IMG/VR virus record: IMGVR_UViG_3300034021_001440
Coordinates: 1 to 64,000 of that record
Direction: 5' to 3' (one strand)
Length of the DNA stretch: 64,000 nucleotides
Source of the DNA: a virus
Position 1 is the stretch's first letter, and every line of letters begins with the position of its first letter. Positions 19,797 to 55,364 of this stretch are shown here, in pieces. The notes below the pieces were generated by a model that made no database searches, was not told the DNA's origin, and saw nothing but the letters and a program-made list of their open reading frames with translations. Both the position numbers and the translations under genes were made by a program.

Positions 19797-22595
19797 GTGT
19801 TTACAAAAAGAATACACGTCTTCAAAGCAGGTGATCAGACCTCGGCCCAAGGGGTCCAACGGAAGTTTTCTCCGAAGGACCTCGAACAAGTGGTGCGGAC
19901 ATACGATCCTGCGATCCATGAAGCACCTCTCGTCATCGGCCATGCGGGAGATAACGACAGTCTTCCTGCCTACGGTTGGATCCAAGGATTCAGCCGTGAA
20001 GGGGATAACTTGTATGCAGACGTCGCTTTTACTGACACTGCAAAGAATCTGGTGAAAGATGGGCATTACCGCAAGGTTTCCATCTCATTCTATTCTCCAG
20101 ACTCAGCAATCAATCCCCACAAAGGCAAGTGGAGTGCCCGACACCTTGCTCTGCTGGGGGCCTCTCCCCCGGCGGTGAAAGGACTTGAGCCATTCACCTT
20201 CGCGGAAACGGAAGGAGTCTACGATTTTGCCGTGGCCTTGTCGCCCTCGGACATTTTCGATGAGGAACTTGGACCGACACTCATTGTTGAGAAGAGTCCC
20301 CTCGAAATGTTGCAAGAAAAACTCGCTGCCGTCCGTGAGGACGTCTCCAGCGCAGTCAAAGACTTGCAAACCAGTTCGCAGGCTCAGCCTGTGCAACAAC
20401 TTGAGGAAGTGACTGGATCCTCGGTAACTACAGAGCCAGAAACCGCACAAATGGCTAATCCAGAAACCGACTACTCTGAAAAACAAAAATACGTGGGTCG
20501 CGAAGGAACTGAAATCACTCAGCAAACGGCTGACCTCGAAGATCAATTTCCGGAAGAGGAATTTATGGAACAAGGAAAAATCAGCCGGAAGCACGCTAAA
20601 GGTGCCCACGGCCAAGTCATGCAAGTCGTAGAGAACGTCTACGAGGAAGCTCACAAAGAATCTACCGACGAACGCAAAGCCGCTGCCGACCGTGCCTTCG
20701 AAGCCAAGCGCATGAAGAAGGAAGGAAAGCCTGCGGAGGCCAAAGAGGTCAAGCGTTTCGGTAAGGAAGAGGACGAACTCATCAAAGAAGCCAAGCATGG
20801 TGAGATGCCTCCCGCCCTCAAAAAGCGTGCTGCTCAAGTGAAAGCCCAAGGCCACTTTGCCGAGGATCACGCCGAGCTCGAGTACGATGAGGACCCCACT
20901 GGTCGTTACGAGACTGCCCGTTCGACTGACAACGGCTATGTCGATCGCATGAAGGTTGGCAAGTCTGGTCCCGACGGCAACGTGGGCCGCATGAAGACTG
21001 CCCGGTCCAGTGAGCAGGATCGCGACCGTATGCACACCGCTGAAAACGGTGAGCAAGACTCTGACCGTATGCACACTGCCGAAGCTGGTCCCGATGGAGA
21101 TGGTTTCTCCCGCTGGGCTGGTCAGGAAGATGGCTACGATCAAGTCAGCAACATGGACCAGTATGACGCTGGTTTTGACGATTACCCGGAAGGCAATAAG
21201 CCGAAGCTGTCTTCGGGAACCGACCCTTACGGTCGTGACGAGACTGAGACCAAGATTCCGACCGAGTCGGAAGAGATGCCCGATGACACCGTGTTTGCTG
21301 TTGGCATGACCAACGTTATGAGCGACAAGAACATGCGTGTTCTTCGTCAGAAGTCTTCGGATGCTCGTGCCAAGTCCGTGGGCACCCACGACTATCTCTA
21401 CGGTGAGCCTCAAGCCGATGAAATGACTGGCGAAAAAGGTGTGACAACCGCTCGCAAGGGCATGACAGCCAGCAAGACCGTTGAGCACGCTGAGTACGAG
21501 ACTGACGACGCTGACAGCGGCGCCAGCCTGGACACTCTGCGCCACGAAATCGGCGACGGCAAGAAAGCCAAGAATCGTCTCCTGACCCCTGGTGCTCAGG
21601 ACTCCCTCGAGGATCCTGCTGCCATTGTTGGACCTTCTGGTGCTTATGCTGAGCGTTCGATGAAGACGCTGCGTGCCACCGACGGCGACGGTATTCCCGT
21701 CAAAGGTGCCGAGCATGCTGAAATCCCTGAGGGCGAGTACAAGTCCTACAAGGGCGAGAAGAAGTCCTCCAACAAGCAGCTGGTCCCCGGCGCTATGGAT
21801 CGCATTGACGAGGCCGATCAAACCGTGGGCCCTGACGGTGCCTATGGTGAAGCCTCTCTCCAACAGCTCCGTAATGACATCGGCGATGGCAAGCCCTCCA
21901 AGGCCCGTCAGCTCAAGCCCGGTGCCATGGACGACCTGGACAGCCCTGCTGAGGTTTCCAAGCGTTCCGGCGGCGTGTATGCTGAGGAGCACGGCGAGAA
22001 GAAGGATCCCTACACCAAGACCGGCTTCGGCTCCACCTACGATGAAGGTGAAGGTGATGACGGTGTGGATGAAGGTGAAGAGGACTACAACGAGCTGAGC
22101 GTTGACCACTGCGGTATGGACTACGGCATGGGTTCGATGGGTCAGGCTCGTGCCGTAGGTTTCCCTGCCATGAGCATGGCTGAGAAGATGCAAGCTGAGC
22201 TTGAGAAACTCAAGTCTGAGCATGCTGAGCTCCAGAAAATGTACATGGAGGAGAAGATCAAGGCTCGCAAGGACAAGATGCACAGCTTCGTTGAAGCTCT
22301 GTATGAAGAGGGTCGCCTGACTGACGGCATCATGCCTCAGGGCGAACTGCTTTCCTATTGCGAAGGCCTTGAGTTCGGCACCATGGAGTTCTCAGAGGGT
22401 GAGACTGCTGCCACCAAACTGCTCGGCCTGCTGGCCAAGCTGCCCCCGATGGTTTCCTTCGGTGAAGTGGCCGGTGGTACTTTCCAGTACGCTGAAGAGG
22501 ACCTCGATCCTCACGCTCGTGCTCTGAAAATGGTTGAAGAGTCCGAAGGTGCTATCGACTACGTTGAAGCACTGAAGAAGACCATGTTCTCCTGA
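19797..22595 (+). CDS. prohead protease-scaffold (Mu I/Z-like) with very long repetitive middle region
   Basis: APLVIGH, AYGWI, YRKVSISF, RHLALLGASPPAVKGL; C-terminal coiled coil and DYVEAL; possible internal start ATG 20565 after GAGGA. Confidence 0.85.
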   Translation: MFTKRIHVFKAGDQTSAQGVQRKFSPKDLEQVVRTYDPAIHEAPLVIGHAGDNDSLPAYGWIQGFSREGDNLYADVAFTDTAKNLVKDGHYRKVSISFYSPDSAINPHKGKWSARHLALLGASPPAVKGLEPFTFAETEGVYDFAVALSPSDIFDEELGPTLIVEKSPLEMLQEKLAAVREDVSSAVKDLQTSSQAQPVQQLEEVTGSSVTTEPETAQMANPETDYSEKQKYVGREGTEITQQTADLEDQFPEEEFMEQGKISRKHAKGAHGQVMQVVENVYEEAHKESTDERKAAADRAFEAKRMKKEGKPAEAKEVKRFGKEEDELIKEAKHGEMPPALKKRAAQVKAQGHFAEDHAELEYDEDPTGRYETARSTDNGYVDRMKVGKSGPDGNVGRMKTARSSEQDRDRMHTAENGEQDSDRMHTAEAGPDGDGFSRWAGQEDGYDQVSNMDQYDAGFDDYPEGNKPKLSSGTDPYGRDETETKIPTESEEMPDDTVFAVGMTNVMSDKNMRVLRQKSSDARAKSVGTHDYLYGEPQADEMTGEKGVTTARKGMTASKTVEHAEYETDDADSGASLDTLRHEIGDGKKAKNRLLTPGAQDSLEDPAAIVGPSGAYAERSMKTLRATDGDGIPVKGAEHAEIPEGEYKSYKGEKKSSNKQLVPGAMDRIDEADQTVGPDGAYGEASLQQLRNDIGDGKPSKARQLKPGAMDDLDSPAEVSKRSGGVYAEEHGEKKDPYTKTGFGSTYDEGEGDDGVDEGEEDYNELSVDHCGMDYGMGSMGQARAVGFPAMSMAEKMQAELEKLKSEHAELQKMYMEEKIKARKDKMHSFVEALYEEGRLTDGIMPQGELLSYCEGLEFGTMEFSEGETAATKLLGLLAKLPPMVSFGEVAGGTFQYAEEDLDPHARALKMVEESEGAIDYVEALKKTMFS

Positions 22596-46615: not shown

Positions 46616-47137
46616 ATGAAGCACAAACACCATATAAAACCCAGATACGAGGGTGGTTCAGACGACCCTGAAAACCTTGTGGAGTTGACTCCAATTCAAC
46701 ACGCAATGTGGCACTATGCCGAGTGGTTGAGGAAAGGAAATTGGCAAGACCTTGCTGCGTATAGAACTCTGGCGGGTAGAGCGCCAAAGGAGGAAGTAAT
46801 CAGAGGATTGGTTTCGGAGTCGAACCGGTCCAGGAAGGGTGAGAAAAGAAGTCCCCGACCCTTGGAAGTTAGACTAAAAATCGCAAAGTCCGTGAAGGAA
46901 AGTCATGAGAGAGCACGAAAAGAAGTCAAACCAAAACCAAAACCAAAACCACCTGCGAGAGGCAGAGGCAGAAAACCAAAACCAATCGAATTGACATCTC
47001 CCTGCGGTCAGTTTGCTTTTTTATTCCCTTCTGCCAAAGAAGCGGGAGCAATACTGGGACTATGGGATGGCAATATTACTAAAGTTGCCCGTGGGGAATG
47101 GAAACAGACGGGCGGATGGACTGCTCGCTACGTGTAG
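46616..47137 (+). mobile_element. free-standing HNH homing endonuclease with NUMOD1-like HTH
   Basis: HKHHIKPRYEGGSDDPENLVELT..QHA.WH; FPSAKEAG..LG....NI....G. Confidence 0.85.
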
Positions 47138-47378: not shown

Positions 47379-47386
47379 GGGTAAAA
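47379..47386 (+). promoter_or_regulatory. putative late promoter GGGTAAAA
   Basis: 33 nt before ATG 47412. Confidence 0.65.
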
Positions 47387-47411: not shown

Positions 47412-48230
47412 ATGGATCGACTTATTTTTCTTGAAGGAGGTGAGTTGTATGTAGAGCTCGTCGGACACGAAGCGTATGATCTACCCACTGTTGTCAAGTT
47501 GTTATCCATGCTCACCTCCAAGGAAAAGCGCAAGACTCGTCGCGCTGAAGCTGCCCAGATGCTAGAACAATCCTACTCAAAAGGAATGGATGTTCAGCCG
47601 CCAAAGTTTCTCACCTGGCGCCAAGAAGAACTCTGGAACTCCTTCAAAAGAAACACAGTCACCCTCGCTCATGGCTGTGCCGGTACAGGAAAAACTCTGA
47701 TCGCCCTTCACTACGGACTTCATGGTATCGCCTCTGGCGATTTCGATAAAGTTTTCTACGTTCGTAGCGACGTCGGTGTTGAGTTTCAAAGGGGACGAGG
47801 CGCTCTCCCTGGCGATCTGTCTGAAAAGATCGCTCCGTTGATCGCACCAGTTTTAGACAACCTGCCCTGCATTATGCGTTCTCAGGGCGCAGCAGAATAC
47901 CTTCTCAATAAGAAAATTATTGAGCCGATCCTCCTCGAAGACATTCGCGGACGCTCTCTCAACGAATCTTTCATTATCGTGGATGAAGCGCAGAACTTCC
48001 TGCCTTCGCACATCAAAACCTGTCTCTCCCGCGTGGGCAAAGATTCCAAAATCTGCCTCATCGGCGATACCAAGCAAACGGACTTGGAAGTTTTCCGTCG
48101 CGAGAATGGACTTGTCGATGCCATTCATCGCCTCAACAACCTGATGGAAGTCGGGATTGTAGAGTTTCAAAAAGAAGACATTGTTCGCAACTCTGTGATT
48201 GCGCATATCCTAGACCGCTACGACGACTAA
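47412..48230 (+). CDS. phoH: PhoH-like ATPase (alternative start 47508)
   Basis: GCAGTGKT, GALPGDL.EK, RGRSL, IIVDEAQN, SRVG, GDTKQTD, DIVRN. Confidence 0.93.
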   Translation: MDRLIFLEGGELYVELVGHEAYDLPTVVKLLSMLTSKEKRKTRRAEAAQMLEQSYSKGMDVQPPKFLTWRQEELWNSFKRNTVTLAHGCAGTGKTLIALHYGLHGIASGDFDKVFYVRSDVGVEFQRGRGALPGDLSEKIAPLIAPVLDNLPCIMRSQGAAEYLLNKKIIEPILLEDIRGRSLNESFIIVDEAQNFLPSHIKTCLSRVGKDSKICLIGDTKQTDLEVFRRENGLVDAIHRLNNLMEVGIVEFQKEDIVRNSVIAHILDRYDD

Positions 48231-49648
48231 TGGCAAGCAAGGGACCCATGACTACCGCTCATTATCCTGGAAAGGGAGCTATGGGTCCCTCCTTGGGCAC
48301 ACGCAAGAGAGCACCCACAGCACGGGAAGTCGCTCGAGCAAAAGCGCAAGCGGTTGGTGGCGGAAGGAAAAGGTGCAGGAAAGGAAAAAATTGCTCGGCG
48401 GCTTGTATTCAGTCGCGCATGATTTGTTTGGTTGAGTTTCCCGCACCGGTGCAAGCCCCTCTCGGGCAGGTGCGTGACTATCTGAGGCAGAAAAATAATG
48501 TTCAACCAGGAAGTATCCAGGACAAGCGTCTGAACGCGGCCCTGGGCAAACTCTCCAGTGTTCTCAAAGTTGAGGGCCAAGAGGCCCCGTCAAAACGCAC
48601 GGGTTTGGCAAAGCCAACGGTTGAGTGGAAACGAGATGAAAAGAGGGCAGAAAGACAAGGCATTCTGTGGAAAGAAGTTCAAGGGTTGAAGAAGCGTCGA
48701 AACCTGCTGGGTGAGGCTGAGTTTGAGCGGGAGGCAATGCGTGCCCTTCACAAGGATGCGATGTCACGGGGTCTCCGACTGCCTCGCGCAGAATTGGAAA
48801 TGATCTTGGATGTTCTTCCAAAAAATGTTCAAACATCTCTCGCAAAGTCTGGAAGAGCAGAAAGTGGTCAGTGGTATAATGGAAAGGATGAAAATGGAAA
48901 TGTGATCTTCTCTAGAACCCCAGGCAAGGAAAGAGCTCTCGCTGTGCTCGACATGTGGTTTCGCCAGGGTGGCACAGATGCCTATCAGGGGAGAGGTGGC
49001 CGAGTGTGGGCACCACCCGATCTCGACATTGAGCACATGCGCTCACTCTCACAGGGTGGCAGGGACACCCCGTCCAACTGGATCTTGGCACGAGCTGGTG
49101 CTCAGCGAGCACGTCAGGCTCAACCTCTTGGCAAGTGGATTGATCGATTGCCGTCTTCCAAAGAGGAATACCAAACATATTTGTCAAACTATGCGAAAGA
49201 ACGCCGAGCAAAGCAAGCACGAAAAGCGCGATTGGCTCTGGTTGATCCGAAAAAAATTGGAGACGGGGAACTTTTCAGCAAAGGTGGAAAGACACTGGCA
49301 GAAATTTTCCGTGGAGAAAACGGGGGAAGAACCCCTGACACTTTCACAAAAGAGTGGTTGGGGATTGCAAGTTCTGGGGGACGGAAAGGAAACTCCGGGC
49401 CTCCCGCACCTTTCGCCAAAGGACTGGCTCTCATTGCAAAAGCAGAAGGTCTTCCCAAGGCACGGGCAGTTGGAAACACAATGAAGCGAATGTGGAACGA
49501 TGACTGGAAAGCACAAGGAAACATAACCAAGCAGCAAGCCTTCAAACAAATGGTGTCCGAAATGGAGAAAAGTTTGACCAGCGAACAATTCAACAACCTT
49601 TTCCTGCCCTCAGCGCAAGCATGGGCCAGAGCCAACGATTTCCTGTAG
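48230..49648 (+). CDS. basic protein: shared Cys4 N-terminal module plus HNH nuclease-like domain
   Basis: GGGRKRCRKGKNCSAACIQ...C; DIEHMRSLSQGGRDTPSNW. Confidence 0.75.
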   Translation: MASKGPMTTAHYPGKGAMGPSLGTRKRAPTAREVARAKAQAVGGGRKRCRKGKNCSAACIQSRMICLVEFPAPVQAPLGQVRDYLRQKNNVQPGSIQDKRLNAALGKLSSVLKVEGQEAPSKRTGLAKPTVEWKRDEKRAERQGILWKEVQGLKKRRNLLGEAEFEREAMRALHKDAMSRGLRLPRAELEMILDVLPKNVQTSLAKSGRAESGQWYNGKDENGNVIFSRTPGKERALAVLDMWFRQGGTDAYQGRGGRVWAPPDLDIEHMRSLSQGGRDTPSNWILARAGAQRARQAQPLGKWIDRLPSSKEEYQTYLSNYAKERRAKQARKARLALVDPKKIGDGELFSKGGKTLAEIFRGENGGRTPDTFTKEWLGIASSGGRKGNSGPPAPFAKGLALIAKAEGLPKARAVGNTMKRMWNDDWKAQGNITKQQAFKQMVSEMEKSLTSEQFNNLFLPSAQAWARANDFL

Positions 49649-49652
49649 GGAC

Positions 49653-49985
49653 ATGAGAAAAGACACGCGTTTTCGTCGCCCTGAGCGGGCAGACATTGAG
49701 TCAAAACTTCCCAAGAAAATCCTCTCAGACCCTCAAGCACTCGGCGTCTGGAACATGATGCTCCAGTGTGACGACCCTTCAGACGTTTCTCACAAGTATC
49801 GATCATACCGAGACAGCGCACATTGCACTGTGCCTCGAGAGCATTTACGAGCGATGCGAGACACTATGATAACGGCAATGAGGGAAGAAAACAGCAAAGA
49901 CCCCAAACCAAGAAAAGAGAGGAAACAAGGAGTTCATTACACTGGTCACAATAACGGTTGGCTACCCCAGAGGAAAGGCGCATGA
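49653..49985 (+). CDS. hypothetical protein (candidate partner of the upstream nuclease)
   Basis: starts 4 nt after the nuclease stop. Confidence 0.65.
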   Translation: MRKDTRFRRPERADIESKLPKKILSDPQALGVWNMMLQCDDPSDVSHKYRSYRDSAHCTVPREHLRAMRDTMITAMREENSKDPKPRKERKQGVHYTGHNNGWLPQRKGA

Positions 49986-50335
49986 ACGTCACCAAAGAAA
50001 TTGAAAGACACCGCCTTCCCTGCGGAGCGGCAACCATCGCGATCGACGGAGTTTGCCGTCGTCGTTTGAGGGATCACTTTGACGCACTGCTGGACAAGTT
50101 GGCCAATGAGGTCAATCCAGAGGGGGTCGATAAGGATATCCTTGAAATGGAGGAAGATGTCGAGATTCCTGAACCTCCCGCACCGGAAGAGACTCGCGAA
50201 GAGAAGAAAAAGCGTTTGATCGCTGAAGGGAAGCTGAGAGCAGAAGTGAACAAAGAGGTTGGCAAGTACAAAGAAAAACTGATGGGCAACAGCAAAATGC
50301 TGCAGGATATCTCGGGTAAAATCAAGAAACGGTAA
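49982..50335 (+). CDS. hypothetical protein
   Basis: ATGA overlap. Confidence 0.65.
   Translation: MNVTKEIERHRLPCGAATIAIDGVCRRRLRDHFDALLDKLANEVNPEGVDKDILEMEEDVEIPEPPAPEETREEKKKRLIAEGKLRAEVNKEVGKYKEKLMGNSKMLQDISGKIKKR
50314..50321 (+). promoter_or_regulatory. putative late promoter GGGTAAAA
   Basis: 31 nt before ATG 50345. Confidence 0.65.
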
Positions 50336-50344
50336 TCAACCAAC

Positions 50345-50695
50345 ATGACAAATCGTATTGGTGGCGACTTCAATCAAGACGCCATGGAAGCCTTTCGTGC
50401 CGCATATGCTCAACAACTGAGCACTCCCGATGAGGACGGTGTGGCCAATAACTCTGGTCTTCCGACGAATGTAGTGACAAATACTTCACCCTGGATCGAG
50501 CACACTGGGCTGTGGAAATACCCCAGTGGCAAAGGTCCGGATGAAGATTTGAAAACTCCATTTGACCCGAATCAGTATCTTTCCGACGTTATCTCTGACG
50601 ATGATGAGGAAGCCGACAGCTTGAGTGAAGAAGAAGTCGAGCACCTGATCAATGAAATCACTGGATCTGAGGACGAAGAAGAAGAGGCTGAGTAG
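50345..50695 (+). CDS. acidic protein with shared N-terminal leader (GDFNQDAMEAFRAAYAQ)
   Basis: leader similar to those of 52999 and 53367. Confidence 0.7.
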   Translation: MTNRIGGDFNQDAMEAFRAAYAQQLSTPDEDGVANNSGLPTNVVTNTSPWIEHTGLWKYPSGKGPDEDLKTPFDPNQYLSDVISDDDEEADSLSEEEVEHLINEITGSEDEEEEAE

Positions 50696-50702
50696 GGTAA
50701 AA
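50695..50702 (+). promoter_or_regulatory. putative late promoter GGGTAAAA
   Basis: 33 nt before ATG 50728. Confidence 0.7.
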
Positions 50703-50727
50703 AGCATACATAGCCTGTGGTCCAATT

Positions 50728-51369
50728 ATGTTCTTCACTGCCCCGAGAGTGATTCCTGAACCTCCCGTTGATGGATTCCCCTCCACCAACCCTCGTCAGG
50801 CAGGGTACAACGAGGACATCAAACAGCGTCTGGCTGGTAAAGACGAGGAAGGGAAAGAGCGTCTTCTGGATGCCCTGCGCTTTGCGTTTTGGATGAGCCC
50901 GAATCTGCCCGGCGTTGAGCTTCTGGTCAGTTCTGCACCTGTGATTACTCTCCACGACCTGGAGGGTGAGTTTGACATTACCATCAATCACGGAAGCGCC
51001 GCCTTTTCCGTTCATGAGAGTCCCTATGGCGATTCTACTCTGGAGGATCAAAGGGTGGCCCTCGGTCGCAGGTTGCTGAAGAACTGGAACACTTTGATCG
51101 CTCATTTGCCCGAAGGTTTTATTATCTACGGTCCCGACGTTGATCTCAACCACCCCACTTTCCCTGTTCGGGAAAGAGTTTTGCAAGGCTTGGGTTTTGC
51201 TCCGGTAGAGGCCAACGGTGACCGCATGGCGATTGTTCGCGGTGGCCAACTGTCTCCTTTGACTGCTTTTCAGCACCACGAACTGACCGGGGAGGATGGC
51301 CCGGCTCATTTGTACAATCAGCGTCTCTGCGTCGAAGAGATTGTCTGGGGCAGCAAGGAGGCTGAGTGA
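50728..51369 (+). CDS. hypothetical protein, possibly GNAT-like
   Basis: RERVLQGLGFAP resembles the GNAT C-terminal motif; weak. Confidence 0.6.
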   Translation: MFFTAPRVIPEPPVDGFPSTNPRQAGYNEDIKQRLAGKDEEGKERLLDALRFAFWMSPNLPGVELLVSSAPVITLHDLEGEFDITINHGSAAFSVHESPYGDSTLEDQRVALGRRLLKNWNTLIAHLPEGFIIYGPDVDLNHPTFPVRERVLQGLGFAPVEANGDRMAIVRGGQLSPLTAFQHHELTGEDGPAHLYNQRLCVEEIVWGSKEAE

Positions 51370-52079
51370 TGTACGGTTCCAACTTTGATTTCAGTGGTGT
51401 TGTTCTTCCCGGCGCTGGCGGTCAAATCAACGCCAGCAACGCCATCAGTGGCGATCAACTTGCCAAAATGAATAAGACCGGTAAAAAATGGCGTCCCGAC
51501 GCAGATGGTTTTATGTCCAACCACAATGAGAACATCCTGAAGATGAACGCCGAGCACCGCGAAAAGCGTGCTGGGCTTGTCAATCGGGACTATAACGAGA
51601 ACGCTGACGGCAAAGATGCGATGAAGGAAATCTTCGATCGCAAAAAAGCTCGAATGTCTTCTTTCAAAGAGATGAAGAAGAATGAGTATGGCTTTGCGGA
51701 AGGGGACTCGCAAGACTCAGAGCTTCTGAGCATGCCCCTGCCAGCATTCAAAGACCACACCTGCAAAGGCCCTGGTTGCCCGATCTGCACCAGCCAGAAG
51801 TATGCGGAGATGTCATTCAGAGAGTGGAGCACCGAAAAGCGCAAGGCGCTCAAAGAGGGCAAAGTCAAGGGCGAATTTGCGGGTCCTGACATGAGCTTTC
51901 CGATTGCCAGCCCTGTGGATGTTGCCGCAGCATGGTCTTCTGTGGGCCGCGCCGCCAATCCTCGGGCCATCATGAAGCGCATCATCTCGATTGCCAAAAA
52001 GCATGGCTGGGAGTCGGGTCTCCCGGAGTCCGTCAAGAAACGTCTGGCAGCTGGTGAATCTGGTTTGCCAACGGAGTGA
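51369..52079 (+). CDS. probable head-internal protein
   Basis: FAE/YAE motifs; C-terminal FAGPDMSFPI...AWSSVGRA module. Confidence 0.65.
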   Translation: MYGSNFDFSGVVLPGAGGQINASNAISGDQLAKMNKTGKKWRPDADGFMSNHNENILKMNAEHREKRAGLVNRDYNENADGKDAMKEIFDRKKARMSSFKEMKKNEYGFAEGDSQDSELLSMPLPAFKDHTCKGPGCPICTSQKYAEMSFREWSTEKRKALKEGKVKGEFAGPDMSFPIASPVDVAAAWSSVGRAANPRAIMKRIISIAKKHGWESGLPESVKKRLAAGESGLPTE

Positions 52080-52082
52080 GCC

Positions 52083-52403
52083 ATGGGGCTTGACATTCTT
52101 GGCGTAGTTGCCTCAATTGCGACTATCATATCCGGACTCGGTTGGGTTCTTGACAGAAACTCCAAAAAGTTTGCGTCAATGCAACAAGCGAGTTCCGACA
52201 TGCTGACAAACTTTGGTGCCAAAGTTGAAAGACTCGACCAAACTCTCACCGAGGTTCGTCTCACTCTTCCAGAAAAGTATGTGACGAAAGAAGAGTTATT
52301 GATGCACATCCGGGGGGAAGAAACCTGGCACAATTCGATTGATCGCCGCCTTGACGATATCCGTGACGAACTTTCCTCCCTACGTGAATGGAGACACCGA
52401 TGA
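52083..52403 (+). CDS. single-TM protein with coiled coil (holin-like candidate)
   Basis: N-terminal hydrophobic helix; LPEKYVTKEE. Confidence 0.6.
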   Translation: MGLDILGVVASIATIISGLGWVLDRNSKKFASMQQASSDMLTNFGAKVERLDQTLTEVRLTLPEKYVTKEELLMHIRGEETWHNSIDRRLDDIRDELSSLREWRHR

Positions 52404-52999
52404 ACTTTGATGACTACGACTGGGAACGCCTTGAAGGTCTTGGCTTTGCTGAGGATGCTCGTGAAGAGCTGAAGAAAGCATGTTGGAAAGGCTATGAGGC
52501 CATTGGTGTAAAACAAAAGAATGGGCGCACCGTGCCCAACTGTGTGCCTAAGAAGAAAAAGAAAAGTCTGAGTTCTAATCACGGGGAGCAGTTTGACATC
52601 AACAAGCCAAACGACATCAATGACATGGCCATCGGCAATGCCCTGCCGAAAGTGCCTGCCACCGGCCCTGTGAAAAATCCACAGATGGGTGAGCAAAAGA
52701 TTCGCATGCCTCGCATGGAAGAGATCAAAAAAGCCAACGCCAATAATGGGCAACTGGCCATGGCTGCTGCTCCCAACTATGCCGAGACTGAAGACTTCAA
52801 CGATGCGTTTCATTCCGACGAGCCAAATGCCCGGATGATCATCACGCAACTGCGAGTGATGCGAGAAAAGATTGACATCATGCTCGGAATGATGTATCCC
52901 GATGACAACTTTGAACCCTGGGTGGCAACCAAAATTGCCAACGCCGGAGTTGGAGTTGCCAGTGTTGCCGACTATCTTCGCTTTGGGGGAGAAACGTGA
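52400..52999 (+). CDS. probable head-internal protein with CWKGY..VPNCV module
   Basis: FAE, HGE and YAE motifs separate short modules. Confidence 0.65.
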   Translation: MNFDDYDWERLEGLGFAEDAREELKKACWKGYEAIGVKQKNGRTVPNCVPKKKKKSLSSNHGEQFDINKPNDINDMAIGNALPKVPATGPVKNPQMGEQKIRMPRMEEIKKANANNGQLAMAAAPNYAETEDFNDAFHSDEPNARMIITQLRVMREKIDIMLGMMYPDDNFEPWVATKIANAGVGVASVADYLRFGGET

Positions 53000-53328
53000 T
53001 GTTTGGATCATTTCCTGACGATGTGCTTGAGGATTTCTTTCAGAGCTATGCTGAAAGAATCGACAAAGACAAAATGCCTTGCAACAAACCCAAGGCACAA
53101 GCGGTGGGTGACTCACTGACTGGAAAGTCACATGTAGTCAAGGCATGCGCAAACGGCAAAGAAAAAGTCATTCGCTTTGGGCAGCGCGGTGTGAAAGGGT
53201 CACCAAAGAAAGAGGGTGAGTCCGCAGCATACGCAAGTCGTCGCAAGCGTTTCAAAACTCGGCACGCAAAAAATATTGCCAAAGGCCCCATGAGTGCGGC
53301 CTACTGGGCAAATAAAGTTAAATGGTAA
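52999..53328 (+). CDS. basic protein with acidic leader (GSFPDDVLEDFFQSYAE)
   Basis: IRFG...RRKRFKTRH...SAAYWA module. Confidence 0.7.
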   Translation: MFGSFPDDVLEDFFQSYAERIDKDKMPCNKPKAQAVGDSLTGKSHVVKACANGKEKVIRFGQRGVKGSPKKEGESAAYASRRKRFKTRHAKNIAKGPMSAAYWANKVKW

Positions 53329-53331
53329 CAA

Positions 53332-53339
53332 GGGTAAAA
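53332..53339 (+). promoter_or_regulatory. putative late promoter GGGTAAAA
   Basis: 35 nt before ATG 53367. Confidence 0.7.
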
Positions 53340-53366
53340 CCCTACATATAATGTCTCTGTCCGGCA

Positions 53367-53891
53367 ATGCGAAAGGACTCCATCAACAATGAAGCCCTTG
53401 AAAAGGCTTATCTGATTTACAAAGAGCACGGTCACGAAATTGTTGACTATGACTTTTCGCACGCGCCGACCGACTATCAGCGGGGCACCGTGCGTGAGCC
53501 AGAGCAGGTCTCTGTCGTCGAAGGTGCTTTCAAAGAGCTGGTGAACCCTGCCAACGTTTCCAACGGTTTCCGCTATGAAGACCTGAAGAGCAAGGCTGAT
53601 GCCCTGGATGCTCGTATCGACGAGCAACAGAACAAGCTGCGTGTGTGTCGCCTGCGCGGAAACTTCCAAGAGTTTCACAGGTGTATGCAAGAAATGCAAG
53701 ATATGATCAAAGAGAAAGAGCGCCTTGACGCCAAAATGGCTGTCGCCGCTCCGGGTGGAAACGCCGGTCAAAAGCAAATGGATGACTATAATCGCACCTA
53801 CGATCAAAACGATAACTACTCTGAAATAACCAGCATTGCAGATCGCATCGCTGCCCTCGAAGAGCAAATCAAGGCATACATGGAGGGGTGA
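53367..53891 (+). CDS. coiled-coil hypothetical protein
   Basis: leader-like N-terminus DSINNEALEKAYLIYKE. Confidence 0.7.
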   Translation: MRKDSINNEALEKAYLIYKEHGHEIVDYDFSHAPTDYQRGTVREPEQVSVVEGAFKELVNPANVSNGFRYEDLKSKADALDARIDEQQNKLRVCRLRGNFQEFHRCMQEMQDMIKEKERLDAKMAVAAPGGNAGQKQMDDYNRTYDQNDNYSEITSIADRIAALEEQIKAYMEG

Positions 53892-55150
53892 TCCCCATGC
53901 TGTCACGCCAACCTACTGCTTCCGACATTCGATCTGCCAAAAGCCGTGCCACAGGGGGAGGACGGAAACGTTGCCGCCGTGGAAAGAATTGTTCCGCCGC
54001 TTGCATTCAAGCAAGCATGGTGTGCCTTGTTGAACTGCCAGAGTCCGCAGGTGTCAATCTTTCGAGGGCTTCGTCGTTCTTGAGCAAACGCGCACCGAGC
54101 TTGCCGAGCAGTATGAAGAGGGAACTTGCCGGGCTCGGTGGTGGTCCCACGGATGTATTGGACGTCAAAGCAAAAACAGTTGAAAGAAAAACAGAAGGCA
54201 AGCCGCCGTGGTCAGCCACAGGAAATACCAAGTGGGCACGAGAGGATGCCGAAGACTTTGACTCTGCCTTGGTCGCAAAGGGCAAGACAGAGCCGCTGCG
54301 AAGAGTGGGAGATAAATCTTATGACAAGTGGGATGATAGCTATGGGAGCGGTGCTTCAAAGGTTGGGGAAGGATCTTATGGAGCCGTCATTCGCAACAAA
54401 GACGGCACATATGTGAAGAGAGGAGCCATCTCTGACACCGAGGCCGAGTTGATTGAGCGGGTGGGGAGAGCAGATATCGGCCCTCGCCTGAAGGCAGCAG
54501 ACATTGACGGAAAACACGACTGGCACGACGAAAAATTTGTAGACGTGCGTGAAGGCCGCATCGCAATGACTGGTGTTCCCGGCAAGCCAATTGGTGACAC
54601 TGCCTTTCCGGATACAAAGCTGGGAGGGAGAAATGCCGCTGATGTGTATTGGGGTGCCCTTGGCAATTTACACCGGCTCGGTATTGCCCATAATGATGCG
54701 CACATTGATAACATCCTTGTGGACGACAAGGGCAAAGGGCGCTGGGTGGACTTGGGACTGGCACAGGCTAATCCAAAAGCAGCCTTTCTAGAAGCCTTTG
54801 GAACTTTTACACCGGCAAACAAGTCGGGAGGGTCCAACTGGAAAGAAGGAAATTGGCAAACTTCTCGATGGCGAGCAACCGGAGTTGAAGACTATTTCAA
54901 ACGAAATGACTTTGGAAGAGGAAAAGAGTTTCTTCAAGACGGAAAGTATAAAGAATTTCGTACAGTCGTTGAGAACCAGCCGAAAGTTCTAAACAAACTG
55001 AGAACTATGGGTTTCTCTGTTTCTGAAATTGACCAACTCATTAGAACTCCCATTCGCTCCACTCCGGAGACTTTTCAACAAGGCCCTTGGGCAAAAATGA
55101 CAGACACCCAAGCCAAAGAACTCATCAACATTTTCTACGATGGCATCTAA
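53888..55150 (+). CDS. protein kinase-fold enzyme with shared Cys4 N-terminal module
   Basis: VGEGSYGAV, YVK, E, LHRLGIAHNDAHIDNIL, VDLGLA. Confidence 0.85.
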   Translation: MIPMLSRQPTASDIRSAKSRATGGGRKRCRRGKNCSAACIQASMVCLVELPESAGVNLSRASSFLSKRAPSLPSSMKRELAGLGGGPTDVLDVKAKTVERKTEGKPPWSATGNTKWAREDAEDFDSALVAKGKTEPLRRVGDKSYDKWDDSYGSGASKVGEGSYGAVIRNKDGTYVKRGAISDTEAELIERVGRADIGPRLKAADIDGKHDWHDEKFVDVREGRIAMTGVPGKPIGDTAFPDTKLGGRNAADVYWGALGNLHRLGIAHNDAHIDNILVDDKGKGRWVDLGLAQANPKAAFLEAFGTFTPANKSGGSNWKEGNWQTSRWRATGVEDYFKRNDFGRGKEFLQDGKYKEFRTVVENQPKVLNKLRTMGFSVSEIDQLIRTPIRSTPETFQQGPWAKMTDTQAKELINIFYDGI

Positions 55151-55307
55151 AAAAGACGACAAAGACTATGGGATTTTGATGGCTCAGTACAAGAACTTGA
55201 GAACCAAAGACCCGGAGAACGCAATAAAATACCTTGAAGGCGCAATGAAGTTGCGAGAGCAAGGAAACGTGAGTGAAGATGCTGTGATAGGGTCTGCGTA
55301 TCTGTAG
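55140..55307 (+). CDS. small protein (55 aa) overlapping the kinase stop; candidate inhibitor / immunity protein
   Basis: MASKKDDKDYGILMAQYKNLR...IGSAYL, translated by hand. Confidence 0.6.
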   Translation: MASKKDDKDYGILMAQYKNLRTKDPENAIKYLEGAMKLREQGNVSEDAVIGSAYL

Positions 55308-55308
55308 C

Positions 55309-55316
55309 GGGTAAAG
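55309..55316 (+). promoter_or_regulatory. variant late motif GGGTAAAG
   Basis: intergenic, upstream of a fibre gene. Confidence 0.5.
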
Positions 55317-55364
55317 TTATGGAAAGCGTGTCTTCACACGCGCACAACTTTGCTCTTCAGCACG

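What the first reader, a model, noticed from the sequence alone, without database searches (positions are those of the whole stretch)
48230..55307. Candidate modular virion-delivered effector system: shared Cys4 N-terminal tag fused to a nuclease or a kinase, each followed by a small ORF
Seen: ORF 48230 (aa 27-71, nt 48308-48442) and ORF 53888 (aa 7-51, nt 53906-54040) share R.PTA.....AK..A.GGGRKRCR[KR]GKNCSAACIQ..M.CLVE.P. The 19-residue core has 18 identities despite many synonymous DNA differences, so it is conserved at the protein level. The sequences after the tag are unrelated: an HNH-like nuclease (DIEH....GG....SNW) in one and a kinase fold (GEGSYG, HND..DN, DLG) in the other. Each gene is tightly followed by a small ORF (49653..49985; 55140..55307, the latter overlapping the stop). 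Both lie downstream of late GGGTAAAA motifs. Known: a constant delivery domain plus variable toxic domain plus adjacent immunity gene defines polymorphic toxin systems, including phage MuF toxins. Here the gpF-like gene (22602) has no toxin extension. Inference: the basic Cys4 (Zn-binding?) module is a capsid- or DNA-loading tag that lets interchangeable enzymes be packaged and injected.
Basis: partly seen in the sequence, partly recalled or inferred. Interest (0 to 1): 0.88.

Follow-up and report, generated by a model that had tools for sequence, protein, structure and literature searches.

The report
Four-cysteine loading tag on cyanophage enzymes
Two late genes of this uncultured cyanobacterial virus, a nuclease-like and a kinase-like enzyme, begin with the same uncatalogued four-cysteine tag. 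Hundreds of related virus proteins carry this tag on many different enzymes, and in a cultured relative the tagged proteins are reported in purified virus particles, so the tag most likely loads enzymes into the particle for delivery to the next host.

Summary
ORF A (48230-49648, HNH-like) and ORF B (53888-55150, protein-kinase fold) share an N-terminal module at the stated coordinates. It is conserved at protein level despite many synonymous DNA differences.

The module (helix, then [KR]RC-x2-GK-x-C-[SG]-[AT]-x-C-I-x5-C-[LM]-V-[DE]-[LM]-P, then a K/P/G/A-rich linker) gave no match in Pfam, NCBIfam or the PDB. The module profile hits 579 cluster representatives. In the 197 proteins examined it is almost always N-terminal. 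It is fused to kinases, ADP-ribosyltransferases, HNH-like, NMNAT-like and many unknown domains, with 2-8 copies per phage contig. A pattern scan of 185,579 bacterial and archaeal genomes found none.

The nearest cultured phage, Synechococcus phage S-CBWM1, has five tagged genes. Three are the APH-, ChoK- and RIO-like kinases reported in its virions, and one (an ORF A homologue) is annotated "virion structural protein".

The best reading is a virion-loading handle on injected enzymes (confidence about 0.6); loading itself is inferred.

The immunity reading fails for the ORF after A, which is a syntenic core gene independent of the effector type. The 55-aa ORF after B is a conserved kinase-linked partner of unknown role.

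This scan has noted similar Cys4 handles on other cyanophage DNA before.

The parts
47379..47386 (+). GGGTAAAA motif heading the PhoH / ORF A / 110-aa ORF / o49958 gene run (candidate late promoter element)
   Evidence: 19 copies, all on the + strand, against 1.3 expected. The same motif precedes the portal, protease-scaffold, capsid-region and TerL genes. Promoter function is inferred.
48230..49648 (+). ORF A, 472 aa: N-terminal Cys4 module plus a well-folded HNH-like (Cas9/HNH_4-type beta-beta-alpha-Me) enzyme body
   Evidence: It is a homologue of S-CBWM1 gp174, annotated 'virion structural protein'.
48308..48451 (+). Module copy 1 (aa 27-74): helix, Gly-rich turn, basic Cx5Cx3Cx6C knuckle, L-V-E-F-P
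   Evidence: AF2 pLDDT is below 50 here.
49016..49090 (+). HNH-like catalytic motif of ORF A (aa 263-287)
   Evidence: Pfam HNH E 0.005, below the cut-off. E268, H269, N283 and W284 are invariant in the family alignment. The top Foldseek hits are HNH domains but are weak.
49653..49985 (+). 110-aa ORF downstream of A: conserved syntenic core gene (homologue of S-CBWM1 gp107), not a cognate immunity gene
53332..53339 (+). GGGTAAAA motif heading the o53367 / ORF B / 55-aa ORF run
53888..55150 (+). ORF B, 420 aa: N-terminal Cys4 module, disordered linker, and a protein-kinase-fold domain (aa ~112-420)
53906..54046 (+). Module copy 2 (aa 7-53)
54221..55147 (+). Kinase domain of ORF B. Intact G-loop, Lys177, Glu185, H-N-D-x4-N and D-L-G are invariant among 35 relatives
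55140..55307 (+). 55-aa ORF overlapping B's stop: member of a small-protein family that sits next to virion kinases in several cyanophage lineages
   Evidence: 43% identity to S-CREM2 gp13 (E 3e-11). hhalign gives 89.5% probability to S-CBWM1 gp114. Adjacency census.

Best explanation
ORF A and ORF B belong to a large, phage-restricted family of mosaic proteins. A constant N-terminal module of about 45-60 residues is joined through a flexible K/P/G/A-rich linker to interchangeable enzyme domains. The module is a short helix followed by a strongly basic four-cysteine knuckle that ends in L-V-[DE]-[LM]-P. The enzyme domains include Ser/Thr-kinase-like, Cas9-type HNH-like nuclease, ADP-ribosyltransferases, NMNAT-like nucleotidyltransferase and many unknown domains. 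The module most likely acts as a virion-incorporation handle. The genes would be expressed with the structural genes, the module would dock the enzyme to an internal head component (scaffold/protease core, portal or capsid interior) during prohead assembly, and the enzymes would leave with the DNA and act on the next host at the start of infection. The four cysteines probably hold a metal ion, and the basic residues may also contact the packaged DNA. Shown here: the module, its strictly N-terminal position, its phage restriction, its domain promiscuity and its multi-copy state. Reported for relatives, via a secondary citation and GenBank labels: presence of tagged proteins in virions. Inferred: that the module is what causes loading, what it docks to, metal binding, and injection. 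The 55-aa protein after ORF B is a conserved partner of the kinase, possibly a co-packaged regulator. The 110-aa ORF after A is an unrelated core gene.
For: (1) The module is real and under protein-level selection.
(2) A profile search of 1.84 billion representatives gives 579 hits at E<=1e-3 and 179 at E<=1e-10. In the 197 proteins examined (lengths 56-802 aa) the first Cys lies at aa 21-68 in 196.
(3) The fused domains are diverse and shuffled: kinases, ART/ADPrib_exo_Tox, HNH/HNH_4, CTP_transf/NMNAT-like, a weak ATLF-like hit and many without any Pfam hit. Two-enzyme combinations occur, such as module+X+ART and module+kinase+Y.
(4) There are 2-8 copies per phage contig. A pattern scan of 185,579 species genomes found none.
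(5) S-CBWM1 is the nearest cultured relative: TerL is 54% identical and the TerL-PhoH-slot1...slot2-baseplate synteny is the same. The profile hits five of its genes: gp106, gp113 RIO-like, gp161 ChoK-like, gp162 APH-like and gp174. PMC10665884 states, citing Xu et al. [quoted passage not shown] The fourth kinase, gp173 (PknB-like), gave no module hit and is not in that list.
(6) The enzyme types on the module match the non-structural enzymes found by mass spectrometry in other cyanophage virions: kinase, Cas9-like HNH nuclease and cytidylyltransferase/NMNAT (S-CREM2, S-SCSM1, S-CRM01, S-TIM5).
(7) AF2 gives confident enzyme bodies but pLDDT below 50 for the module and linker, as expected for a tag that folds on a partner or metal.
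(8) Both genes lie in runs headed by the GGGTAAAA motif that also precedes the portal, protease and capsid-region genes.
Against: No experiment shows that the module causes packaging. The primary S-CBWM1 proteomics paper could not be read, so I rely on a secondary citation and GenBank labels. The authors of PMC10665884 themselves warn that abundant late proteins may co-purify with virions. The three virion kinases are paralogues, so the kinase body rather than the tag could be the shared cause; only gp174 breaks that confound. S-CBWM1's virion NMNAT-like protein lacks the module, and homologous virion kinases in T4-like cyanophages lack it too, so it is not the only route into a virion. In two other contigs the tagged gene sits among nucleotide-metabolism genes rather than structural genes. 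No protease site could be established: the scaffold polyprotein repeats end in [FYH]-[AG]-E, whereas the module ends in L-V-[ED]. A very basic Cys4 knuckle could simply bind nucleic acid.
Confidence: 0.6

Rival explanations
1. The module is a small Zn- or nucleic-acid-binding domain that steers the attached enzymes to DNA, RNA or a nucleoid-bound host target inside the cell. Virion presence would be incidental, or a consequence of sticking to DNA. This is not strictly exclusive of the main reading.
For: The core is extremely basic ([KR][KR]RC-[RK]-K-GK) with four invariant Cys at fixed spacing. The partners act on nucleic acids or nucleoid proteins (HNH; ARTs; kinases). Some tagged genes lie in replication or nucleotide-metabolism neighbourhoods.
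Against: A general DNA-binding knuckle would be expected at varied positions and in cellular genomes. This one is N-terminal in 196 of the 197 proteins examined, and a pattern scan of 185,579 genomes found none. It also heads proteins with no plausible nucleic-acid role and short proteins with little beyond the module (56-150 aa). It coincides with virion detection in S-CBWM1. It has no similarity to any solved Zn finger.
Confidence: 0.2
2. This is a polymorphic toxin-immunity system in the strict sense: each tagged enzyme is a toxin and the small ORF after it is its cognate immunity protein protecting the producer.
For: There is a constant N-terminus with variable enzymatic C-termini, including classic toxin folds (ART, HNH). 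The 55-aa ORF is repeatedly adjacent to kinases.
Against: The 110-aa ORF does not co-vary with the effector type and is absent next to two HNH-type genes. Most tagged genes in L015/L016 have no detected small partner of this family. The 55-aa family's S-CREM2 member was found in virions. A pattern scan found no module in bacterial genomes. No MuF/PF04233 domain was found.
Confidence: 0.07
3. The module is a removable pro-peptide or auto-inhibitory or oligomerisation element. It would keep dangerous enzymes inactive while they are made late in infection, with no role in targeting.
For: The position is N-terminal and is followed by a conserved L-V-[DE]-[LM]-P boundary and a flexible linker. T4 CTS peptides are also cleaved off (background knowledge; review PMC9026906 listed).
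Against: No matching protease motif was found in this phage's scaffold. The short proteins with little beyond the module make no sense as inhibited enzymes. One inhibitory peptide is unlikely to fit kinases, ARTs, HNH and nucleotidyltransferases alike.
Confidence: 0.1

Closest known systems
Phage T4 capsid targeting sequence (CTS) proteins: internal proteins IPI-III and the ADP-ribosyltransferase Alt
   Same: A short N-terminal element is shared by otherwise unrelated proteins, including an ART. The proteins are loaded into the prohead and injected with the DNA. Small cargo proteins also exist. The module ends in L-V-E/D, which recalls the T4 L/I-x-E cleavage rule (background knowledge; PMC9026906 and PMC9503650).
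   Different: There is no sequence similarity. This module is longer (about 45-60 aa), has four invariant Cys and is very basic. The phage has a Mu-I-like rather than T4 gp21-type protease. Cleavage and sufficiency for targeting are untested.
MuF-fused effectors / MuF polymorphic toxins and phage polyvalent proteins (Aravind group; PMC9503650)
   Same: A constant head-associated N-terminal part carries interchangeable enzymatic effectors, with ARTs prominent. The genes lie near terminase and portal genes.
   Different: The handle is a small uncatalogued Cys4 peptide, not the MuF domain or a portal fusion. The proteins are 56-802 aa, not giant polyvalent proteins. A pattern scan found no module in bacterial or prophage genomes. 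No cognate immunity gene was shown.
Virion-associated protein kinases, NMNAT-like proteins and Cas9-like HNH nuclease of cyanophages (S-CBWM1, S-CREM2, S-CRM01, S-TIM5, S-SCSM1)
   Same: ORF B's kinase domain and ORF A's HNH-like body are homologous to these virion-detected proteins. S-CBWM1 shares the synteny and carries the module on its three virion kinases.
   Different: The papers read here do not mention a shared N-terminal module. In S-CBWM1 two of the five tagged genes are annotated with starts that cut the module off. T4-like cyanophages package homologous enzymes without this module.

Membership tests
T4-type capsid targeting sequence (CTS) | Short N-terminal peptide shared by unrelated head-internal proteins | tested here: met
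   The module is N-terminal in 196 of 197 proteins and sits on many unrelated C-termini.
T4-type capsid targeting sequence (CTS) | Ends at a prohead-protease site (L/I-x-E in T4) and is removed on maturation | tested here: inconclusive
   L-V-[DE] follows the last Cys, but the candidate motif in this phage's scaffold is [FYH]-[AG]-E. No peptide data are available.
T4-type capsid targeting sequence (CTS) | Sufficient to load a foreign protein into the capsid | not testable with these tools
   This needs a tag-reporter packaging assay.
MuF polymorphic toxins | N-terminal MuF/SPP1 gp7 domain (PF04233) | tested here: not met
   No Pfam hit lies in the N-terminal region of A or B, or of relatives.
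MuF polymorphic toxins | Cognate immunity gene immediately downstream that co-varies with the toxin domain | tested here: not met
   The 110-aa ORF is kept with kinase, protease-like and other slot-1 proteins and is absent beside two HNH-type genes.
MuF polymorphic toxins | Found in prophages within bacterial genomes | tested here: not met
   A module pattern scan of 185,579 species genomes confirmed no hit.
HNH endonuclease (PF01844 / PF13395 HNH_4) - ORF A | Beta-beta-alpha-Me motif with catalytic His and conserved Asn | tested here: inconclusive
   D-x-D-[IV]-E-H...GG-x-D-x-P-S-N-W is conserved. Pfam HNH scores 17.3 bits against a 21.4 cut-off. Four relatives hit HNH_4 at 7e-5. The top Foldseek hit is an HNH nickase, but with E 0.73.
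Protein kinase superfamily - ORF B | Gly-rich loop, ATP-binding Lys, alpha-C Glu, H-x-D-x4-N catalytic loop, D-x-G | tested here: met
   All are invariant in 35 relatives. The AF2 model matches more than 500 kinase structures at probability 1.0. The Pfam score is below gathering (22.4 against 31.7), so this is a divergent member.
Virion-associated (packaged) protein | Detected in purified particles | not testable with these tools
   Only indirect evidence exists: homologues and tag-bearing proteins of S-CBWM1, and homologous enzymes of S-CREM2, are reported in virion proteomes.

The most novel reading that the evidence does not exclude
The Cys4 module is a self-sufficient, metal-dependent cargo-loading signal. 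That would make it a new class of capsid address tag, unrelated to the T4 CTS or MuF. A whole lineage of cyanophages would use it to load a swappable arsenal of kinases, ADP-ribosyltransferases, nucleases and NAD enzymes, plus tag-only small proteins, into the head for injection. The 55-aa protein would be a co-packaged regulator of the kinases. If so, the tag could be used to package arbitrary proteins into these phages, and the list of fused domains would be a catalogue of first-minute host-takeover activities in marine and freshwater cyanobacteria.
Probability: 0.35. Interest if true: 0.85.

Novelty: new variant of a known kind. Interest (0 to 1): 0.72.

Why it matters
Phages are known to inject enzymes with their DNA, but outside T4 (CTS) and MuF or portal fusions the signals that select cargo are unknown. 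This finding gives a short, sharply defined and easily searched sequence tag, present in hundreds of protein clusters. It coincides with proteins reported by proteomics in the virions of a culturable cyanophage, S-CBWM1 on Synechococcus CBW1002. That makes the question of how cyanophages choose what to package directly testable. It explains why kinases, NMNAT-like enzymes and Cas9-like nucleases keep turning up in cyanophage virion proteomes. It also flags many unknown domains as candidate early host-takeover effectors of globally important primary producers.

Tried and rejected
- **Searches that found nothing.** The ESM Atlas gave no usable hit for the module. A PDB sequence search with the module profile gave nothing at E<=10. 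PHROGs gave nothing for A's and B's partners. The module pattern scan of species genomes gave none. S-TIM5 has no module.
- **Searches for the 55-aa ORF.** A single-sequence pattern search in IMG/VR found nothing, and the alignment-based search found only the L015 contig. An HMM run over the loci already fetched was more useful.
- **Rejected: the 110-aa ORF as immunity for A.** The synteny test is.
- **Rejected for lack of support: a protease site shared between the module end (L-V-E) and the scaffold repeats ([FYH]-[AG]-E)**.
- **Rejected: DNA-level conservation or a recombination hotspot as the reason for the shared module.** Third-codon positions differ throughout.
- **Clustering.** Single-linkage clustering of the C-terminal parts merged 160 proteins because domains are shuffled. 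A rough segment decomposition gave about 70 segment families; this is only an order of magnitude.
- **Paper not held.** The primary S-CBWM1 paper (Xu et al. 2018) is not held.

Full report
**What the window is.**
The window is the first 64 kb of a 112,418-bp linear IMG/VR virus record, with all genes on the + strand. It encodes:
- a topoisomerase subunit;
- a Pol-gamma-like polymerase;
- a Mu-type portal;
- a 932-aa Mu-I-like protease-scaffold;
- a capsid protein and a baseplate J protein;
- TerL, an HNH homing endonuclease and PhoH.

The nearest cultured phage is Synechococcus phage S-CBWM1 (Aokuangvirus, 139 kb). TerL is 54% identical. The gene order is the same: TerL, small gene, PhoH, "slot 1" protein, a block of small genes, "slot 2" kinase, small genes, giant baseplate/fibre protein.

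- ORF A (48230-49648, 472 aa) and ORF B (53888-55150, 420 aa) align only at their N-termini (BLASTP E 7e-13).
- The DNA alignment differs at many third-codon positions through the core, so selection acts on the peptide.
- ORF A's body folds confidently (AF2 pLDDT 80-95 from residue ~75). It carries a conserved D-x-D-[IV]-E-H...GG-x-D-x-P-S-N-W motif of the Cas9/HNH_4 type.
- Database support for HNH is weak: Pfam is below its cut-off and the best Foldseek hit is an HNH nickase at E 0.73.
- ORF B residues ~112-420 are an intact protein-kinase fold. All catalytic residues are invariant in 35 relatives, and more than 500 kinase structures match at probability 1.0.
- In both models the module and linker have pLDDT below 50.

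**What the module is.**
I aligned 25 copies from the window and from IMG/VR contigs (A2) and profiled 197 database proteins. The module has four parts:
- a short helix, roughly P-[TS]-x-S-[EQ]-I-R-R-A-K-x-x-A-V-G-G;
- a very basic knuckle, [RK]-[KR]-R-C-x-K-G-K-[SN]-C-[SG]-A-[AT]-C-I-x5-C-[LM]-V-[DE]-[LM]-P;
- a weakly conserved stretch;
- a K/P/G/A-rich linker.

The four Cys, the G-K pair and the spacing Cx5Cx3Cx6C are invariant. Minimal versions, as in S-CBWM1, start at M-S-K-R-C. The module gave no match in Pfam, NCBIfam or PHROGs and no PDB sequence match.

**How widespread it is.**
- A search restricted to residues 20-80 of ORF A found 54 clusters of 284-800 aa.
- A profile search of 1.84 billion representatives found 579 at E<=1e-3 and 179 at E<=1e-10.
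- Among the 197 proteins examined, lengths run from 56 to 802 aa, and the first Cys lies at residues 21-68 in 196.
- IMG/VR holds 57 distinct loci.
- Large contigs carry 2-6 copies. One 47-kb contig carries at least 8 within 21 kb. S-CBWM1 carries 5.
- A pattern scan of one genome for each of 185,579 bacterial and archaeal species confirmed none. The TIM5 lineage has none.

**What it is fused to.**
Identified partner domains are:
- protein-kinase-like domains of several subfamilies;
- NAD:arginine ART and ADPrib_exo_Tox;
- HNH/HNH_4;
- an NMNAT-like cytidylyltransferase domain;
- a weak anthrax-LF-like protease signal;
- many bodies with no family hit.

Local alignments show real domain shuffling. 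Examples are module + a 430-aa unknown + ART, module + Bud32-like kinase + a second unknown, and module + part of that unknown + ADPrib_exo_Tox. A rough decomposition gives some 70 segment families.

**Evidence for virion association.**
In S-CBWM1 the module profile hits five genes:
- gp106 (slot 1);
- gp113 RIO-like kinase (slot 2);
- gp161 ChoK-like kinase;
- gp162 APH-like kinase;
- gp174.

For gp113 and gp161 the annotated starts lie inside or after the module. An in-frame upstream ATG restores it.

PMC10665884, citing Xu et al. [quoted passage not shown] These are exactly the three tagged kinases. The untagged PknB-like gp173 is not listed.

gp174 lies between the head peptidase and the major capsid gene. 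It is annotated "virion structural protein" and is a homologue of ORF A across the module and the HNH-like region (E 4e-24).

ORF A's body also matches a protein in S-TIM5's "virion structural protein and packaging" category. ORF B's kinase matches kinases labelled or reported as virion proteins in S-CREM2 and S-CRM01.

S-CREM2's virion proteome contains a Cas9-like HNH nuclease, a kinase, a cytidylyltransferase and small unknowns. NMNAT-like proteins recur in cyanophage virions. The enzyme kinds on the tag are thus the same kinds repeatedly found in cyanophage particles.

Both window genes also lie in runs headed by GGGTAAAA. This motif has 19 sites, all on the + strand, against 1.3 expected, and it also precedes the portal, protease and capsid-region genes.

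**Limits of that evidence.**
- I could not read the primary proteomics paper.
- The authors of PMC10665884 caution that abundant proteins may co-purify with virions.
- The three kinases are paralogues, so they are not independent observations.
- S-CBWM1's virion NMNAT-like protein lacks this module.
- T4-like cyanophages package homologous enzymes without it.
- In two contigs the tagged gene sits among nucleotide-metabolism genes.
- Whether the tag is cleaved is unknown. The scaffold polyprotein is punctuated by [FYH]-[AG]-E at repeat ends, while the module ends in L-V-[DE].

That the module is the cause of loading is therefore an inference. I put it at about 0.6.

**The small downstream ORFs.**
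The 110-aa ORF after A is a core syntenic gene, homologous to S-CBWM1 gp107.
- It persists where slot 1 holds a kinase (L015), a protease-like protein (L016), a short tagged ORF (L018) or gp106.
- It is absent from L010 and L011, which do have the HNH-type gene.

It is therefore not a cognate immunity gene.

The 55-aa ORF after B behaves differently.
- It is 43% identical to S-CREM2 gp13 (E 3e-11) and related to S-CBWM1 gp114 (hhalign 89.5%). Each of these lies directly after a virion kinase.
- An HMM over all fetched loci finds it right after a kinase in the window, in L015 (twice), L016 and L074.
- It lies after a 98-aa tag-only ORF in L018 and in L062/L072, and before a tagged kinase in L046.
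- S-CREM2 gp13 was itself seen in virions, with one peptide.
- The closest full-length relative of this block (L006) lacks both ORF B and the 55-aa ORF, so the pair behaves as an accessory cassette.

Its role (regulator, chaperone or inhibitor) is open.

**Comparison with known systems.**
Functionally this resembles the T4 CTS system (IPs and Alt) and MuF- or portal-fused effectors and polyvalent proteins (PMC9503650). It is not a member of either. It has no MuF domain, no bacterial or prophage occurrence in the pattern scan, no shown immunity pairing, no similarity to the T4 CTS, and a different protease family. I class it as a new variant of a known kind, namely virion-packaged effector enzymes selected by a shared handle, carried by an uncatalogued peptide module.

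**Relation to earlier notes of this scan.**
Earlier AI notes describe similar Cys4 handles on other cyanophage DNA. They agree with this reading but are not independent evidence.

Noticed in passing
L019:8378-8482 and L021:5822-5902 (S-CBWM1 record 70377-70481 and 117821-117901): S-CBWM1 gp113 (RIO-like kinase) and gp161 (ChoK-like kinase) are annotated with starts that cut off the Cys4 module. In-frame upstream ATGs (M-S-K-R-C, M-G-K-N-C) restore it. This may be why the shared tag went unnoticed.
   Followed up: yes
L024:2852-5119 and L024:5385-7994 (S-CREM2 gp14 kinase and gp12 Cas9-like HNH nuclease): These two virion proteins of a T4-like cyanophage share an N-terminal stretch of about 35-95 aa with each other (BLASTP E 6e-5 and 1e-4). 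It is different from the Cys4 module and may be a lineage-specific counterpart of the same idea.
   Followed up: partly
L079:1360-2019 (S-CBWM1 NMNAT-like virion protein); window 52388-52999: The NMNAT-like protein starts with another two-Cys motif (C-x-R-P-D-G-x2-Y-G-x5-C-R-K-G). Window ORF 52388 carries a C-W-K-G-Y...V-P-N-C-V-P motif that hits several PHROGs of unknown function. Other short Cys motifs may mark proteins of this block.
   Followed up: no
window 46616-47137; L003, L007: The HNH/NUMOD homing endonuclease between TerL and PhoH is variably present and variably placed among close relatives. It is absent in L004-L006 and lies after the 61-aa ORF instead of before it in L003, whose TerL and ORF A are 100% identical to the window's.
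   Followed up: partly
window 19797-22595: The 932-aa Mu-I-like protease-scaffold has long repeats ending in Y-A-E, Y-G-E, H-A-E or F-A-E. There are 22 [FYHLIVM]-[AGSV]-E sites, which are plausible maturation cleavage sites.
   Followed up: partly
window, 19 sites (e.g. 18098, 19760, 23366, 44523, 47379, 53332): GGGTAAAA occurs 19 times, only on the + strand and mostly just upstream of structural genes (expected 1.3). It is a strong candidate late promoter or regulatory element.
   Followed up: partly
L006:13626-14202 compared with window 53367-55350: The closest relative with the full block goes straight from the o53367 homologue to the giant fibre gene. ORF B and the 55-aa ORF are therefore an insertion or deletion between close relatives.
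   Followed up: partly
L018:5813-6106, L062:5488-5781 (98-aa ORFs): Conserved tag-only proteins (module plus about 40 aa) are followed by the 55-aa family member. They could be small internal proteins or remnants of kinase cassettes.
   Followed up: no
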